64,000 bases of DNA, taken from sequence record PV660452, one strand, 5' to 3'. A model generated the notes under the pieces. That model saw only the letters and a program-made list of their open reading frames with translations, made no database searches and was not told the origin of the DNA. Shown here one piece after another: positions 26,753 through 36,308 of the stretch. A program made the translations under genes and the position numbers. Numbering within the stretch: position 1 is the stretch's first letter; the number at the start of each line of letters is the position of its first letter. The stretch comes from Escherichia phage LF82-9.

Positions 26753-27051
26753 TACTCTTTGAAAGGAATTAACTTTTTAACTGCTTTAGATACTTCGTCA
26801 CGAACCTGATGGAAGTTCTTGAGCTGTTCAAGGCGTTGTTCGTAATACGCAATCTCATCTTCTTCAAGACAATCGTCAGCGTCTTCTTTCAGATATGCCT
26901 TGTACTCATTAAAGAGGGCCCATAGGCGGTTCTCAAAGTCATCAAGGCTTTGAATTTTCTTGTGCTTCGGAACAAGGCCAAAAGGATTGCTTTCAGTTAT
27001 GCGTCTAGATGCTTCATAATGAGTTCCAAAGCCTGATAGGATTTGAGCCAT
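26752..27051 (-). CDS. Hypothetical protein (99 aa)
   Basis: ORF track. Confidence 0.5.
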
Positions 27052-27317
27052 TAGTATTTTTCCTCAGGTCGAAATACTGCACGACAGGCCCACATGCTGG
27101 CTTCTTTTAGATGTTGCTTAGCATACTTAAGAGCCTGTACTGCATCCATATCTTCTTTGGTTTGTTGCTCTGTTTCATTTTCTTTCAAGATATATGCTTC
27201 TTCAATCAGAGCATCAAACAACAATCCAAGACGGACTTCTGCATCTTTAATAGCGTTCACTTTACCGATTTTATCGTCGGTATGCGGCTTGTAGCCTTTG
27301 ATGTCTTCAATCGACAT
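27051..27317 (-). CDS. Hypothetical protein (88 aa) at the T4 vs.4 position; possible Acb2-type cyclic-nucleotide sponge, not verified
   Basis: ATG at 27317 with SD GAGGAA; synteny only (regB, vs.3, vs.4 ... glycyl-radical ORF). Confidence 0.4.
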
Positions 27318-27531
27318 AAGGAATTTCCTCATCGGTGACAAGGTCATATTCGACCAATTGGATAGGCTCGTTAATACCATATCCACGTACAGTGATATCG
27401 GTTGTCGGATATTTTCCAGTAATATCACCCATTCTAAATGCTTCAGTGAATGATTGCTCACCTGAGCAACTAAACCAGGCGGCAAAACATTTTAAAACAT
27501 CTTCAGACCCTTCTATAATCAATTTAGCCAT
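27307..27531 (-). CDS. Hypothetical protein (74 aa)
   Basis: ORF track. Confidence 0.45.
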   Translation of the reverse strand: MAKLIIEGSEDVLKCFAAWFSCSGEQSFTEAFRMGDITGKYPTTDITVRGYGINEPIQLVEYDLVTDEEIPYVD

Positions 27532-32534: not shown

Positions 32535-32840
32535 TTATTTTCCTCGACATTCTTTAATGAAATTTTCTAGATTGGTAGATTCAATAGCTTTTTTACGAGC
32601 TTCTGCATGTTCTTCTTCAGACAATTTACATTTATAATTAACCCAGACGTTATGGTCAAAACTAGTCGTGGCATATAATAACAAAGCCCCGACGAATAAT
32701 AAAAATGGCGATAAGAATACAAAACCAGGAACACCATCCATATCGTAAGCCTTTTGTAATACTGCAACAGAAAGAGCTGCGTAAAAAAGTGATACAAATA
32801 TTGTTAAAAGACCAATTCGGTTGGTTTCTGTTAATTTCAT
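32535..32840 (-). CDS. Hypothetical membrane protein (101 aa) ending in ENFIKECRGK
   Basis: Two hydrophobic helices; shared C-terminal motif. Confidence 0.5.
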   Translation of the reverse strand: MKLTETNRIGLLTIFVSLFYAALSVAVLQKAYDMDGVPGFVFLSPFLLFVGALLLYATTSFDHNVWVNYKCKLSEEEHAEARKKAIESTNLENFIKECRGK

Positions 32841-32910: not shown

Positions 32911-33867
32911 TTATTTGAAAGGTTTTACCATATGAAAGTTTTGTTTGAAACGCTTGACGTAATCGTCGTGTCCTAAGCTTTGGTACATACTTACTACTTT
33001 GCTATAATTTTCCCAAGCGAACTCACGGAACCATCCTGATGTGATTGATGTACAGACCTTTTCAAGGGCCATCATAAAACTATCACGTGGATGGATTTCA
33101 AAGTTATTAGGAATCTGAGAACGTTCTAACGCTAGTACACATGATTCTTCGTATACGCCGGCCAATTTGACCATTTCTGGTAATGATTCGAACTTCTCGC
33201 GTGAGGTCATGACTTCAGAACCATCTTTCATATAAAATGTATACGCTGGACGGTCCGTTAGTGCAATGGCTTCGTGAATAGTATCATGGTCATACGTATA
33301 GATGTCATCTTTAAAGAATGCGCTTTTAGAAGTGTCAAGAACTGGGTGAGCATAGTTCAAGGTTTCTTTCTGGCGTTTCAGCATAATTTCATTAAGTTCA
33401 TCGTTCAGTGTAACACCTTTACCACGAAGATACTGAATATGGTTCATAGTCTTTAAAAAGAATGGATTATTTTTCTTGAAACGATGGGACATCTTAATTG
33501 CAAGGCACATCTCAGGAGTTGCCCAGTAAAACCCGTTCAAACGGTCTTTAGTCAAATTTTTCTTGGCGTATTTTAAAAGGTCATAAGAAGACGTGAAATC
33601 TTCAGGAGTGAGTTCACCGACTAATTCACGGACATTAGTGATTGCCGGAACAATATATGCTTCAAAATGAGTTTCGCGCCCATTATGGAAGCATTTGAAA
33701 ACTTGGACATCAGGGTTATCTTGGTGAACATATACACCCATCATTTGATTTTTGAATGCATTCCAAGAACCTTGGTCCGCAATAAAGTCCCAATCACTAT
33801 TTTTAATAGCGCTAGAATCAATAAGACCGTGATAGTGAAGTGCACGAGAACCAATAACTAACATCAT
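32911..33867 (-). CDS. Hypothetical protein (318 aa) with nucleotidyltransferase-like N-terminal motif
   Basis: N-terminus MMLVIGSRALHYHGLIDSSAIKNSDWDFIAD (GS ... SDWDF); spacing longer than canonical, assignment tentative. Confidence 0.5.
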   Translation of the reverse strand: MMLVIGSRALHYHGLIDSSAIKNSDWDFIADQGSWNAFKNQMMGVYVHQDNPDVQVFKCFHNGRETHFEAYIVPAITNVRELVGELTPEDFTSSYDLLKYAKKNLTKDRLNGFYWATPEMCLAIKMSHRFKKNNPFFLKTMNHIQYLRGKGVTLNDELNEIMLKRQKETLNYAHPVLDTSKSAFFKDDIYTYDHDTIHEAIALTDRPAYTFYMKDGSEVMTSREKFESLPEMVKLAGVYEESCVLALERSQIPNNFEIHPRDSFMMALEKVCTSITSGWFREFAWENYSKVVSMYQSLGHDDYVKRFKQNFHMVKPFK

Positions 33868-33895
33868 AATATTTTCCTCGGATTAATTCATTAAC

Positions 33896-34147
33896 TTAAA
33901 TTTCACGACATGCGATATTATATTCATCCCAGAGGTCATCATGTGAAGCCTCTACCAATGGAACGATTGTACCGTTTATGTCTTCATTATAAGGGCAAAT
34001 TGTACAGTGCGCATCTTCGAATCGGATGCCTTTGTGTTCAGATTTTTTATAACGCATATCGAATATCTTTGCAAACTTTTCACGAGTAATGGTTTTACCA
34101 ACCACTTTGGTTCCGATACTTTCGTAATAAATCATTGTGGACTCCAT
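33896..34147 (-). CDS. Hypothetical protein (83 aa)
   Basis: ORF track. Confidence 0.45.
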   Translation of the reverse strand: MESTMIYYESIGTKVVGKTITREKFAKIFDMRYKKSEHKGIRFEDAHCTICPYNEDINGTIVPLVEASHDDLWDEYNIACREI

Positions 34148-34163
34148 TTGTTTTGATAGGACT

Positions 34164-34193
34164 ACTATAACATAGCCCTATCTTGTTGTAAAC
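34164..34193 (-). promoter_or_regulatory. Early-promoter cassette (GTTTAC; ATAGGACTA / TAGCCCTAT stem)
   Basis: Near-duplicate of the cassette at 32869-32898. Confidence 0.5.
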
Positions 34194-34197
34194 TGTT

Positions 34198-34395
34198 TTA
34201 GCAAGAATAACTAGATGATACCCAGCCTTGAACAGTGATACTATTGTGGGATAATGAGATCGCGTCCTGGAGATTCAGACCTGCGTTATCTTCAATCCAT
34301 AATGTAACTTCTTCGCGTTCTTCTGTTGCAATTTGGAACAGGTTTTCCAGAGCAGCTACTGCCGTACGTACAGCACAATCTAATTCACGAGACAT
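34198..34395 (-). CDS. Hypothetical protein (65 aa)
   Basis: ORF track. Confidence 0.4.
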   Translation of the reverse strand: MSRELDCAVRTAVAALENLFQIATEEREEVTLWIEDNAGLNLQDAISLSHNSITVQGWVSSSYSC

Positions 34396-34404
34396 ATGAT
34401 TTCC

Positions 34405-34677
34405 TTAGCATTCCATAGAAGATGCAACCCAACCACCTGATTCGAGGCTGGTGTAATATGAGTGTTGGTTGACAGTGGCCCAATTCGGATTGCCTTGTTC
34501 GGTATAATGCTCAAGTTCTTTTTTCAAGAATCCAGGAGAATAATACGTTCCACCCATACCATAAGCTGGATACAAGTCGAATGTTGTGTTTTGTTTATCA
34601 GCAATTTCTTTGGCAGCCTCAATAGCTGCATAGATTTTTGCTACAGCTTCAGCCAGTTCGGTTTGTTCTTTAGACAT
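34405..34677 (-). CDS. Hypothetical protein (90 aa); paralog of the next gene (shared C-terminus GGWVASSMEC)
   Basis: Both start MSK..., share YYSPG/YYPKG and end WVASS-x-x-C. Confidence 0.5.
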   Translation of the reverse strand: MSKEQTELAEAVAKIYAAIEAAKEIADKQNTTFDLYPAYGMGGTYYSPGFLKKELEHYTEQGNPNWATVNQHSYYTSLESGGWVASSMEC

Positions 34678-34686
34678 AATGATTCC

Positions 34687-34992
34687 TTAGCACAACGCAG
34701 AAGACGAAACCCAAGCACCTTCAGTAATAACGTAACCATTACCTTCACGCTTAACATCGCCACCATTATTTTCAATTTCATCTTTCATCCACTGGGATAC
34801 GATTTCACCCTTAGGATAATAAGTACGACCGCTACCATAATCACCTACAGAAAACGATACAGCGTATTGGTCTGCAATCTTTGTAGCTTCTTCTTCGATA
34901 CGTTCAGCTTGATTCAGAAGTTTATAAATTGCATCTGAAGCGGATTTGGCATCATTAAACTCTGGTACTTTAATTTCAATAATCTTACTCAT
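34687..34992 (-). CDS. Hypothetical protein (101 aa); paralog of the previous gene (C-terminus GAWVASSALC)
   Basis: Shared N- and C-terminal motifs with 34405..34677. Confidence 0.5.
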   Translation of the reverse strand: MSKIIEIKVPEFNDAKSASDAIYKLLNQAERIEEEATKIADQYAVSFSVGDYGSGRTYYPKGEIVSQWMKDEIENNGGDVKREGNGYVITEGAWVSSSALC

Positions 34993-35348
34993 TTTCTACA
35001 TTCCTTAATAAAGTTTTCTATTGTTTCATTTTCACGTCTAGCTAGGAGTTCATTATAACTAATCATTTGAGAAGCGTAAACCTTTTTATTTTTCTTGTTA
35101 TGGTTTATAAAATCGTAGTAAAAATAGACTACAGTACAAAATGATGCGATGGATGCAAAGGCTTGAGTATATCGTAAGTCCTGCCATTGGTCTGTGAATC
35201 CACCGGTGTTCCCTATAAATCCTAACACAACTCCGTCAATAAGAAATCCAACTAATCCAAAGGCAAATCCCATGCCAATACTCATAATAAAAATTAGAAT
35301 GTTCTCACCGAGAGAAGGCCGTACGGTTAAGAGTTGAGGCTTTTGCAT
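34989..35348 (-). CDS. Hypothetical membrane protein (119 aa) ending in ENFIKECRK
   Basis: Two hydrophobic helices; shared C-terminal motif. Confidence 0.5.
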   Translation of the reverse strand: MQKPQLLTVRPSLGENILIFIMSIGMGFAFGLVGFLIDGVVLGFIGNTGGFTDQWQDLRYTQAFASIASFCTVVYFYYDFINHNKKNKKVYASQMISYNELLARRENETIENFIKECRK

Positions 35349-35722
35349 CTTATTTCCTTAACGAATTCCATAGCTTCTTCATATTCATACTTTTTAACAG
35401 CTTCAACATACTGAGCTTGGGCTTTTGCGCACTGAACTTTCCACTCGCGAACTCGAGCTCTGTGATGACGGCCTTGGTGCCAATATCCTGCCCAATTAAT
35501 AGGCATTAATAAAAACGGTACAATAAGTGGTGCGACGAACATTAATGAAAACGCTGCATCAGACGTTATAACTTTATTGGAATCTAAAATAGCTCCTATA
35601 ATCATAAAGATTAAAAATGCTAAAGCTAAAATAGGGCCAAATAGTACTTCGTTTGGGATTAATTTACGTTTGTATTCGTATGCCCAGGGCTTAATTGGCA
35701 TGTACAGGGTTGGCTTTGACAT
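35327..35722 (-). CDS. Hypothetical membrane protein (131 aa) ending in MEFVKEIRC...
   Basis: ORF track 35327..35752 trimmed to ATG at 35722; hydrophobic helices. Confidence 0.45.
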   Translation of the reverse strand: MSKPTLYMPIKPWAYEYKRKLIPNEVLFGPILALAFLIFMIIGAILDSNKVITSDAAFSLMFVAPLIVPFLLMPINWAGYWHQGRHHRARVREWKVQCAKAQAQYVEAVKKYEYEEAMEFVKEIRCKSLNS

Positions 35723-36308
35723 ATTCTCTACATTCCATAATAAATTGCTCAAGGATTAAATTGTTAGTGAAATTAGGACTAACAACCATAGTTTCATAAA
35801 GCGCATCAATAGCACTTAAAGCATCAACTCTTTTAAGCAAAGGCTTGCCTTCATACATAGTTTCAGAATCGATGATTAACGTAAAGTAATATTTTTTATT
35901 ATCGACTAGAACTTCTGTATCGATATAAAACATATTAGACCTCAGAAGCTTATCTCTAAAACCATAATAATCTTCTGAACGTTCGCTGATATATTCCCAT
36001 TCAGTGTTTAAACAACAAACAGACCATGTAGGAGCAACGAAATCAGTGAATCTAATATCATGGTCTGCAACTAGTTTAGCAATAGCTCCGATATCATGAA
36101 TCATAATACCTGGGGCTAATAAAGATTTTCGGCGATTTGCGTATTCAGTTGTCTCATAAGAAGCTGACCAGTACCATTTACGTCCAGTTGCAACATATCG
36201 TAATGAATCAACTAAAGACGTAGGTGGATTTACCTTATCTCGGAACTCTTCGAACATTGAGTCAATATCATTATTTTGGTTTCGCATGTTAACTCCTTTA
36301 TTATCCAA
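35691..36308 (-). CDS. Hypothetical protein (205 aa) ending in EQFIMECREY...
   Basis: ORF track. Confidence 0.55.
   Translation of the reverse strand: MDNKGVNMRNQNNDIDSMFEEFRDKVNPPTSLVDSLRYVATGRKWYWSASYETTEYANRRKSLLAPGIMIHDIGAIAKLVADHDIRFTDFVAPTWSVCCLNTEWEYISERSEDYYGFRDKLLRSNMFYIDTEVLVDNKKYYFTLIIDSETMYEGKPLLKRVDALSAIDALYETMVVSPNFTNNLILEQFIMECREYVKANPVHAN

What the first reader, a model, noticed from the sequence alone, without database searches (positions are those of the whole stretch)
34405..34992. Tandem paralog pair sharing a C-terminal GWVASS-x-x-C tail
Adjacent 90 and 101 aa ORFs both start MSK..., share a YYSPG/YYPKG core and end ...GGWVASSMEC and ...GAWVASSALC. A conserved C-terminal cysteine-containing tail on small duplicated proteins could be a modification or targeting signal.
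Basis: seen in the sequence. Interest (0 to 1): 0.4.

Follow-up and report, generated by a model that had tools for sequence, protein, structure and literature searches.

The report
Cysteine-tailed small phage proteins beside enzyme
Three (not two) neighbouring small genes of this T4-like phage belong to a large, uncharacterised, phage-only family of acidic proteins that all end in the same tryptophan-serine-serine-cysteine tail and are almost always encoded just upstream of one conserved enzyme-like gene, which points to an undescribed two-part phage system.

Summary
The ORFs lie on the minus strand: 34687-34992 (101 aa) and 34405-34677 (90 aa). They are true paralogs (32% identity over 76 aa). 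A third ORF, 34198-34395 (65 aa), carries the same tail and was missed.

The window is a Mosigvirus (RB69/JS09 group). The proteins belong to PHROG 899 and 4882. They have no Pfam or NCBIfam family, no PDB fold match despite a confident model (pLDDT 93), and no literature.

Among 479 distinct relatives the C-terminus reads W-x-[SAP]-S-[SG]-(x-x)-C. Cys is the last residue in 96%. The spacer before Cys is 0 or 2 residues, never 1.

The main new result is synteny. Every locus that could be assessed (35/35) has a ~300-aa DUF7277-DUF7275 protein directly downstream on the same strand; in the window this is 32911-33867. Starting from that protein, 69 of 79 loci have tail ORFs just upstream (184/1083 ORFs there versus 3/3072 elsewhere). 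The protein has an invariant GS...DxD signature, which is nucleotidyltransferase-like but unverified.

Best reading: a conserved phage module in which the tail is the handle through which the enzyme binds or modifies a diversifying set of small effector proteins. The mechanism is inferred, not shown.

The parts
34687..34992 (-). 101-aa acidic small protein, tail ...GAWVSSSALC; RB69ORF139c-type; phrog_899
   Evidence: ORF list. phrog_899 E=1.3e-22. AF2 model pLDDT 93.4: helix 15-43, five strands, tail strand 93-96 and terminal turn 97-100.
34405..34677 (-). 90-aa paralog, tail ...GGWVASSMEC; phrog_899; a rare mosaic allele
   Evidence: 32% identity over 76 aa to the 101-aa protein. Its 90%-identity cluster has only 4 members. 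It is 76-78% identical to the common 90-aa Mosigvirus allele.
34198..34395 (-). 65-aa third member, tail ...QGWVSSSYSC; phrog_4882; lacks the YGxGG loop
   Evidence: It matches the family profile only in the last 14 residues (hhalign probability 80%). Its N-terminal helix links to the 90-aa type through intermediates (43% over 30 aa).
34687..34713 (-). tail codons W-V-S-S-S-A-L-C plus stop of the 101-aa gene
   Evidence: Six-frame motif scan.
34405..34431 (-). tail codons W-V-A-S-S-M-E-C plus stop of the 90-aa gene
34198..34224 (-). tail codons W-V-S-S-S-Y-S-C plus stop of the 65-aa gene
32911..33867 (-). 318-aa enzyme-like protein (Pfam DUF7277 + DUF7275, phrog_2141), the constant downstream partner of tail genes
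   Evidence: Pfam E=9e-28 and 2e-79. Invariant G6 S7 D25 D27 K125 H128 K139 T140 R165 H194 D195 H198 E240 E241 E248 R249 K270 G278 R281 in 21 diverse homologs. Synteny statistics.
33896..34147 (-). 83-aa ORF (phrog_3723) between the tail genes and the enzyme; lineage-specific, membership in the module doubtful
   Evidence: Found in only about 12 T4-like loci in the neighbour clustering.
35052..35080 (-). promoter-like site upstream of the three tail genes (GCTT-N14-TATAAT, T4 middle-promoter pattern) inside the e.3-like gene
   Evidence: Consensus scan. Sequence read. The equivalent site is annotated as a middle promoter in phage SA35RD. Pattern match only.
34164..34192 (-). promoter-like site (TTTACA-17-TATAGT, TG-extended) between the 65-aa gene and the 83-aa/enzyme genes
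   Evidence: Pattern match only. SA35RD annotates a terminator in this gap.

Best explanation
The three ORFs are members of a large, phage-restricted superfamily of small (median 87 aa) acidic (median pI 4.4) cytoplasmic proteins. These have an N-terminal amphipathic helix, a short beta-sheet (often with a YG-M/S-GG-T-YY-P loop) and a hypervariable acidic insert. They end in an invariant C-terminal knob, W-x-[SAP]-S-[SG]-(0 or 2 residues)-Cys-COOH. Together with the DUF7277-DUF7275 protein encoded directly downstream they form a two-component module, expressed early or in the middle of infection. I propose that the tail is the common handle by which that enzyme recognises all the paralogs. The most likely chemistry is transfer of a nucleotide-derived group onto the invariant Ser at -4, next to the Cys, by a Pol-beta-type nucleotidyltransferase centre (GS...DxD). 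The variable bodies and inserts of the paralogs would then engage different host or phage targets. What is shown: paralogy, tail conservation, phage restriction, near-obligate synteny and gene order. What is inferred: physical interaction with the enzyme, the enzyme's class, covalent modification, and the effector role.
For: Paralogy and family membership: (148/148 aligned members hit phrog_899). Tail conservation: 130/146 cluster representatives end W-x-[SAP]-S-S-x-x-C. Of 479 distinct proteins, 423 have the long form, 39 the short form, none a one-residue spacer, and 43 carry extra internal W-x-x-S-[SG]-(0-2)-C copies. Portability: the 65-aa protein shares only the tail with the profile, and single loci carry 2-5 tail genes with different bodies. 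Synteny from the tail side: 35/35 assessable loci have the enzyme 14-2015 bp downstream on the same strand (with L015 rescued). Synteny from the enzyme side: 69/79 loci have tail ORFs within 3.5 kb upstream by a strict pattern, and most of the rest have variant tails. Enrichment is 184/1083 versus 3/3072 ORFs, p=7e-108. No other gene is universally linked, so the pair is kept together while the surroundings change. An independent source (a Logan contig) shows four tail genes followed by DUF7277/DUF7275. Named phages outside Straboviridae show the same arrangement: Phapecoctavirus nieznany gp064/065 and Pseudomonas PN09 gp142. T4 lacks both parts at the syntenic e.2/e.3 junction and in the 70 kb examined. 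The enzyme has invariant G-S, D-x-D and His/Asp/Glu/Lys/Arg positions typical of a catalytic protein. The module is phage-only: 6 hits, all MAG contigs, in 185,579 species genomes. Established knowledge supplies precedents for nucleotidyltransferase-fold enzymes modifying a partner protein encoded nearby: GlnD-PII, MNT-HEPN and CitX/MdcG-acyl carrier protein.
Against: The enzyme's class is unverified. No Pfam, PDB, PADLOC or NCBIfam similarity to any nucleotidyltransferase was found. hhalign against recalled E. coli CCA-adding enzyme and kanamycin nucleotidyltransferase sequences found nothing. The single-sequence AF2 model failed (pLDDT 37). There is no direct evidence of binding or modification. 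In the AF2 model the tail is an ordered strand plus turn of the fold, so its conservation could be structural. In this window a promoter-like site and an 83-aa gene separate the tail genes from the enzyme. Distant enzyme homologs have no tail gene nearby: actinophages, Vibrio XZ1, roseophage DSS3_VP1 and Stenotrophomonas IME-SM1. Known nucleotidyltransferase-type protein modifiers mostly target Tyr, and none is known to need a terminal Cys.
Confidence: 0.4

Rival explanations
1. The tail is simply the last beta-strand and C-cap of a small fold. Trp anchors the core and the Ser residues cap a terminal turn. The terminal Cys binds a metal or bridges subunits. The proteins act on their own as binders or inhibitors of host proteins (host take-over or anti-defence), and they sit next to the DUF7275 gene only because both belong to the same early accessory block.
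For: AF2 places residues 93-96 as a strand and 97-100 as a helical turn with pLDDT about 78-92. The proteins are small, acidic and tandemly diversified in a hyperplastic early region, as many anti-defence proteins are. In phage nieznany the module abuts a vs.4 (Acb2-type) gene. The spacer rule of 0 or 2, never 1, fits a geometric constraint.
Against: This does not explain near-obligate linkage and fixed order with one enzyme-like gene across unrelated genomic contexts. It does not explain extra internal copies of the motif in low-complexity linkers. It does not explain the same tail on the 65-aa body, which lacks the core loop.
Confidence: 0.25
2. The small proteins are regulators or inhibitors of the downstream enzyme, in the manner of an antitoxin. 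The terminal Cys thiolate plus free carboxylate plugs a metal centre formed by the enzyme's invariant His/Asp/Glu residues, keeping a potentially toxic enzyme in check or timing its activity.
For: Cys is required to be the very last residue in 96% of members. The enzyme has invariant H128, H194, D195, H198, E240, E241 and a near-invariant C272. The small genes always come first, the usual order for an antidote. Insertion of a terminal residue into a metalloenzyme site is a known inhibitory principle (TIMPs, carboxypeptidase inhibitors; established knowledge).
Against: Up to five different inhibitors for one enzyme is unparsimonious. Distant enzyme homologs exist without any tail gene. No metal site has been shown. 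Internal motif copies lack a free carboxylate.
Confidence: 0.2
3. The proteins are ribosomal precursors whose C-terminus is cyclised. A Ser at -3 is activated and eliminated to dehydroalanine and then attacked by the terminal Cys, giving a lanthionine/AviCys-like S-x-x-C ring, with the neighbouring enzyme supplying the activation step.
For: S-x-x-C-COOH is the ring spacing of AviCys peptides such as epidermin and cypemycin (established knowledge). Ser and Cys are co-invariant, and an enzyme is always adjacent.
Against: No dehydratase, LanD-type flavoprotein, protease or exporter recurs nearby. The -3 position can be Gly. The short form has Cys directly after Ser-Ser. The tail belongs to a confidently folded domain rather than a leader/core peptide. 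There is no precedent in lytic coliphages.
Confidence: 0.05
4. Chance similarity or gene-calling artefact.
For: None beyond the small size of the ORFs.
Against: Pairwise E=5e-7. There are hundreds of homologs with the same tail. The ORFs are annotated in 257 related phage records. Only these 3 of 184 window ORFs end in Cys.
Confidence: 0.01

Closest known systems
GlnD-PII and MNT-HEPN: nucleotidyltransferase-fold enzymes that nucleotidylate a partner protein
   Same: An enzyme with an hG[GS]...DxD signature is encoded beside its small protein partner. In MNT-HEPN the modified residue lies near the partner's C-terminus.
   Different: Those enzymes modify Tyr and their partners are PII or HEPN folds. 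Here the partner fold is unmatched in the PDB, the candidate acceptor is Ser next to a terminal Cys, there are 1-5 partners per enzyme, and the enzyme matches no nucleotidyltransferase model.
CitX/MdcG with the citrate-lyase/malonate-decarboxylase acyl carrier proteins
   Same: A nucleotidyltransferase-type enzyme attaches a nucleotide-derived prosthetic group to a Ser of a small acidic protein.
   Different: The ACP Ser is N-terminal and internal. The ACP has no Trp/Cys tail, the system is cellular metabolism rather than phage, and no sequence similarity was found.
ThiS/MoaD-type carriers with ThiF/MoeB, and LysW amino-group carrier (C-terminal EDWGE)
   Same: Small, often acidic proteins defined by an invariant extreme C-terminus that is the site of enzyme action, encoded next to the enzyme. 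LysW's tail also contains a Trp.
   Different: Those tails end in Gly-Gly or Glu, the folds are beta-grasp or zinc ribbon, and the enzymes are E1-like or ATP-grasp. None of these features is met here.
AviCys/lanthipeptide precursors (epidermin, cypemycin)
   Same: C-terminal S-x-x-C-COOH spacing.
   Different: No LanD or dehydratase genes, a folded 60-150-aa protein rather than a leader/core peptide, and a cytoplasmic lytic-phage context.
PHROG families 899 and 4882 (unknown function)
   Same: The three window proteins are members by HMM.
   Different: The PHROGs carry no annotation. The shared tail, the link between the two PHROGs and the synteny with DUF7277-DUF7275 are not recorded there.

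Membership tests
PHROG 899 (unknown function) | Significant match to the family HMM | tested here: met
   The 101-aa protein scores E=1.3e-22 and the 90-aa protein E=7.3e-19. All 148 aligned relatives match.
PHROG 4882 (unknown function) | Significant match to the family HMM | tested here: met
   The 65-aa ORF scores E=7.7e-37 over its full length.
Cys-tail superfamily as defined in this report | C-terminus W-x-[SAP]-S-[SG]-(0 or 2 residues)-C, with Cys last or nearly last | tested here: met
   All three window ORFs meet it. 479 distinct relatives meet it.
Cys-tail superfamily as defined in this report | Encoded upstream, on the same strand, of a DUF7277-DUF7275 gene | tested here: met
   In the window the enzyme starts 331 bp downstream of the 65-aa gene. 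The rule holds in 35/35 assessable loci and in 69/79 loci from the enzyme side.
Pol-beta-type nucleotidyltransferase superfamily (for the 318-aa partner) | Signature hG[GS]-x(9-13)-D-h-[DE]-h near a beta-strand/helix junction | tested here: met
   G6, S7, D25 and D27 are invariant in 21/21 sequences. The pattern occurs in 71/83 distinct sequences, starting at about residue 2, with spacing of 10-20 residues. Most misses are truncated ORF calls. The spacing is somewhat longer than the classical range.
Pol-beta-type nucleotidyltransferase superfamily (for the 318-aa partner) | Profile or sequence similarity to a recognised nucleotidyltransferase family | tested here: not met
   Pfam gives only DUF7277/DUF7275. 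The PDB profile search returned 0 hits at E<=10. PADLOC and NCBIfam returned nothing relevant. hhalign against recalled CCA-adding enzyme and KNTase sequences gave probability below 1%.
Pol-beta-type nucleotidyltransferase superfamily (for the 318-aa partner) | alpha/beta nucleotidyltransferase fold with three catalytic carboxylates | not testable with these tools
The single-sequence model is unusable (pLDDT 36.9). The fold-search jobs were exhausted.
HD-domain phosphohydrolases (C-terminal domain of the partner) | H...HD...D metal-binding motif in an all-helical domain | tested here: inconclusive
   Invariant H128, H194-D195, H198 and E240/E241 are compatible, but there is no HD Pfam hit and no structure.
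RraB (PF06877), suggested by a JGI name on relative P0241 | Match to the RraB profile or sequence | tested here: not met
   hhalign probability is 1.6% over 11 columns. P0241 has no Pfam hit, whereas E. coli RraB scores E=2.5e-34.
ThiS/MoaD/ubiquitin-like carriers | C-terminal Gly-Gly and beta-grasp fold | tested here: not met
CaaX-type prenylation signals | Cys at position -4 followed by two aliphatic residues and X | tested here: not met
   Cys is the last residue in 462/479 proteins.
Lanthipeptide/AviCys RiPP precursors | Neighbouring dehydratase/LanD-type enzymes and a leader-core peptide architecture | tested here: not met
   No third recurrent neighbour gene was found. The tail is part of a confidently folded domain.

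The most novel reading that the evidence does not exclude
A previously unrecognised phage post-translational modification system. A dedicated DUF7277-DUF7275 enzyme installs a nucleotide-derived group, or converts the Ser/Cys pair into a new covalent structure, on an invariant C-terminal W-x-x-S-S-(x-x)-C tag. That tag is shared by a rapidly diversifying family of small effector proteins, switching them on or off during infection.
Probability: 0.25. Interest if true: 0.85.

Novelty: categorically new. Interest (0 to 1): 0.62.

Why it matters
The enzyme-like gene occurs in 733 of 50,697 deposited phage genomes. Relatives of the 101-aa tail protein occur in 394 of them, and relatives of the 65-aa protein in 251. 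These include T4-like genera used for therapy against E. coli, Klebsiella, Enterobacter, Acinetobacter and Aeromonas, as well as jumbo phages. Every copy is annotated 'hypothetical'. A strictly conserved terminal motif coupled to one enzyme-like partner gives a concrete, cheap experimental handle on a block of phage 'dark matter'. One mass-spectrometry experiment on a defined C-terminal peptide, with and without one gene, would show whether phages run their own protein-tagging chemistry. If the paralogs are effectors against host functions or defences, the module would also explain why this slot is hyperplastic in T4-like genomes.

Tried and rejected
- **Weak Pfam hits:** the 101-aa protein gave Peptidase_S78_2 (E=0.007) and E217_Gp32 (E=0.01), both below the curated cut-offs, and other members do not share them. 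Rejected.
- **RraB lead:** this came from a JGI name and a local 'YDGWGTYF' resemblance. hhalign probability was 1.6%. Rejected.
- **Locus search with the small-protein profile:** The search for related loci with A2 failed because no stretch was conserved enough. It was replaced by a codon-pattern scan for YGMGGTY.
- **Enzyme structure:** The single-sequence AF2 run gave pLDDT 36.9 and was discarded.
- **Enzyme classification:** Pfam, NCBIfam, PADLOC, the PDB, and hhalign against recalled CCA-adding enzyme and KNTase sequences were all negative.
- **Literature:** searches for phrog_899, the RB69ORF names, DUF7275/DUF7277, 'SSxxC' and broader anti-defence or nucleotidyltransferase terms found nothing relevant.
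- **A third module gene:** none is universal. A lambda-type phosphatase and a Pnk-like kinase recur only in one jumbo-phage lineage.
- **Other known motifs:** CaaX, ThiS/MoaD and lanthipeptide readings fail defining features (see membership tests).
- **T4 coverage:** only 70 kb of T4 was scanned. The remaining 99 kb was not checked.

Full report
**What is in the window.** The window is a T4-like phage of the genus Mosigvirus (RB69/JS09/ATK47 group). Region 33800-35400 is 96% identical to ATK47, mar005P1 and many others. It lies in the block between nudE/e.2 and e.3-e.6/frd.3 of the T4 map. The two ORFs of the finding are on the minus strand: 34687-34992 (101 aa) and 34405-34677 (90 aa). The quoted cores are right. 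The 90-aa tail is quoted correctly. The 101-aa tail reads GAWVSSSALC, so one residue was misread.

BLASTP between the two proteins gives 32% identity over 76 residues, E=5e-7. Both match phrog_899. The similarity therefore extends well beyond the tail, and they are true paralogs.

A third adjacent ORF, 34198-34395 (65 aa, phrog_4882), ends QGWVSSSYSC and was missed. Of 184 ORFs of at least 50 aa in all six frames, only these three end in Cys. The genes are packed with 9-nt spacers in which the stop overlaps a GGA ribosome-binding site. The first gene overlaps the stop of the upstream e.3-like gene. A T4 middle-promoter-like site (GCTT-N14-TATAAT) lies just upstream. This fits early or middle expression, but it is a pattern match only.

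**The family.** A word-indexed search found few relatives. An exhaustive profile search of 1.84 billion cluster representatives found 164 at E<=1e-3. Nearly all are 70-120 aa, and the match runs to their last residue.
- Of 146 short representatives, 130 end exactly W-x-[SAP]-S-S-x-x-C, and 8 more have one or two extra residues.
- Pooling all sequences gathered gives 479 distinct proteins. Of these, 423 have the long form (two residues between Ser-Ser and Cys), 39 the short form (Cys directly after Ser-Ser), none a one-residue spacer, and 17 have residues after the Cys.
- 43 proteins carry extra internal W-x-x-S-[SG]-(0-2)-C copies in acidic linkers.
- Median length is 87 aa and median pI 4.4.
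- The -3 Ser can be Gly in some lineages. The hard invariants are therefore Trp, the Ser at -4 (long-form numbering) and the terminal Cys.
- Other near-invariant positions are an Ala-Asp/Glu at the end of the N-terminal helix and the loop Y-G-x-G-G-x-Y.

No Pfam or NCBIfam family matches. All 148 aligned members match phrog_899, which has unknown function. All source names are 'hypothetical'.

**Relation of the 65-aa protein.** Against the family profile it aligns only over its last 14 residues (hhalign probability 80%). With tails removed, single-linkage clustering still joins 197 of 212 distinct tail proteins. The 65-aa type connects to the 90-aa type through its N-terminal helix and first strand (43% over 30 aa). 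It is best seen as a shortened paralog that kept the helix, one or two strands and the tail but lost the YGxGG loop.

In sister genera the same slot holds three to five consecutive Cys-tailed genes. These genera are Dhakavirus JS10, Mosugukvirus PM2, Kanagawavirus CIP9 and the unclassified Klebsiella phage Biddle_MM4. One subtype there has an internal DW[LMN]NSSCYGEE and a short W-x-[PA]-S-S-C end.

**The constant neighbour.** I scanned IMG/VR for the codons of YGMGGTY, which gave 73 loci, 41 of them with tail ORFs. Clustering the neighbouring ORFs showed one ~300-aa protein in 30 of 41 loci. It is the homolog of window ORF 32911-33867 (318 aa; Pfam DUF7277 + DUF7275; phrog_2141).
- **From the tail side:** taking flank lengths into account, every locus with enough downstream sequence (35/35, including the window and four named phages) has this gene directly downstream on the same strand, 14-2015 bp away. 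The other 11 loci end less than 900 bp after the tail genes (L015 is rescued).
- **From the enzyme side:** 80 loci were retrieved with the enzyme profile. Of 79 with a callable enzyme ORF, 69 have at least one tail ORF within 3.5 kb upstream by a strict pattern. Most of the remaining ten have variant tails immediately upstream, such as WVQSSC, NWDGSSC, WYNSSESC and WQSSQQNC.
- **Enrichment:** tail ORFs make up 184 of 1083 ORFs in that upstream window against 3 of 3072 elsewhere, and those three are also upstream of an enzyme. Fisher p=7e-108.
- **No third partner:** no other gene is universally linked. The pair stays together while the surroundings change.
- **Independent confirmation:** a Logan contig carries four tail genes followed by DUF7277/DUF7275.
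- **Named phages outside Straboviridae:** Phapecoctavirus nieznany (gp064, gp065, beside a vs.4/Acb2-type gene) and Pseudomonas phage PN09 (gp142).
- **T4:** e.2 abuts e.3, and neither part is present in the 70 kb examined.
- **Phage restriction:** the module is essentially phage-only. Only six hits, all MAG contigs, were found in one genome from each of 185,579 species.
- **Range of the enzyme family:** it is wider than the tails, with 733 phage records. Distant homologs have no tail gene nearby. These are Streptomyces Muntaha, Gordonia Aphelion, Vibrio XZ1, roseophage DSS3_VP1 and Stenotrophomonas IME-SM1.

**What the partner protein looks like.** In 21 diverse homologs the invariant positions are G6, S7, D25, D27, K125, H128, K139, T140, R165, H194, D195, H198, E240, E241, E248, R249, K270, G278 and R281. 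The N-terminal 'hhhIGSxA...DxDhh' starts at about residue 2 and occurs in 71 of 83 distinct sequences; most misses are truncated ORF calls. It reads like the hG[GS]-x(9-13)-D-h-[DE]-h signature of Pol-beta-type nucleotidyltransferases. The C-terminal H...HD..H...EE pattern is compatible with a metal site.

This is a motif-level inference only. No Pfam, PDB, NCBIfam or PADLOC model of any nucleotidyltransferase matches. hhalign against recalled CCA-adding enzyme and KNTase sequences is negative. No usable structure could be obtained.

**Interpretation.** Four things are shown:
- a triplet of paralogs;
- a very large phage-only superfamily defined by an invariant C-terminal W-x-x-S-[SG]-(0/2)-C;
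- a confident fold with no solved analogue;
- near-obligate, ordered synteny with one enzyme-like gene.

The rest is inferred. I think the tail is the element through which that enzyme recognises all the paralogs. The most likely action is modification at the invariant Ser beside the Cys, by analogy with GlnD-PII, MNT-HEPN and CitX/MdcG-ACP. The variable bodies and acidic inserts would then address different targets.

Internal repeats of the motif and its presence on bodies that share little else favour a recognition or modification site over a purely structural strand. The ordered tail in the model and the 0-or-2 spacer rule show that geometry matters.

The rivals are a purely structural or metal-binding tail on independent host-binding proteins, antidote-like regulators that plug the enzyme's metal centre with the terminal Cys, and a lanthionine/AviCys-type cyclisation. 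None can be excluded without experiments.

**Novelty.** No publication, curated family or solved structure covers either component. The closest known systems resemble it only in logic (enzyme plus tail-defined small partner), and each fails at least one defining feature. I therefore rate it as lying outside known kinds. The mechanism is unproven, and the enzyme may turn out to be an ordinary nucleotidyltransferase acting in a GlnD-like way.

Noticed in passing
window 32535-32840, 34989-35348, 35327-35752, 35691-36308 (all minus strand): Four neighbouring ORFs (e.2/e.3/e.4/e.5-like, several with hydrophobic segments) share another C-terminal motif: ...NLENFIKECRGK, ...IENFIKECRK, ...AMEFVKEIRCKSLNS and ...EQFIMECREYVKANPVHAN. 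This is a second, different conserved Cys-containing tail in the same block.
   Followed up: no
window 34405-34677: The 90-aa gene is a rare mosaic allele. Its first ~45 residues are the common Mosigvirus type. Its C-terminal half (YYSPGFLKKELEHYTEQGNPNWATVNQHSYYTSLESGGWV...) matches the version in Kanagawavirus CIP9 and Klebsiella phages (e.g. vB_Kpn_F48, Biddle_MM4). Its 90%-identity cluster has 4 members, against 76-78% identity to the usual 90-aa allele.
   Followed up: partly
protein P0002 (RB69ORF139c): The RB69 reference copy of the 101-aa gene is truncated to 71 aa (...SQWYEK) and has lost the tail. This is probably a frameshift in that isolate or record.
   Followed up: no
L106, L110, L116, L118, L119, L123 and others (16 loci); L119:44-847 type (10 loci): In one jumbo-phage lineage a lambda-type Ser/Thr phosphatase or metallophosphoesterase (GD[LIV]HG) lies 150-1650 bp downstream of the DUF7275 gene, and a T4 Pnk-like kinase is nearby. 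The association is lineage-specific, not universal.
   Followed up: partly
L166 (Streptomyces phage Muntaha), L167 (Gordonia phage Aphelion), L168 (DSS3_VP1), L169 (Vibrio phage XZ1): Distant DUF7275 homologs lack tail genes. They sit near RNA-repair genes or tRNA clusters: polynucleotide kinase, RNA ligase 2 and a tRNA array. In three of them (Muntaha, Aphelion, XZ1) they also sit next to a different ~97-aa Tyr/Gly-rich small ORF. Muntaha gp196 versus XZ1 gives 25% over 69 aa, which is weak.
   Followed up: partly
L172:1638-1913 (phage nieznany gp063); window 27051-27380: In Phapecoctavirus nieznany the module is directly preceded by a vs.4 (Acb2-type anti-CBASS sponge) homolog. The window has a vs.4-like ORF (ending ...[18 protein letters not shown]) about 7 kb away.
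   Followed up: no
proteins P0241 and P0295/P0296/P0305: Source annotations that look spurious: 'regulator of RNase E activity RraB' on a family member (rejected by hhalign) and 'Ig-like domain-containing protein' on the 65-aa protein in UniRef.
   Followed up: partly
L001:4528-4902 (Shigella phage JK36): The e.4-like membrane protein next to the cluster is annotated 'sulfurtransferase' in several JK-series records and 'hypothetical/predicted membrane protein' elsewhere. This was not checked.
   Followed up: no
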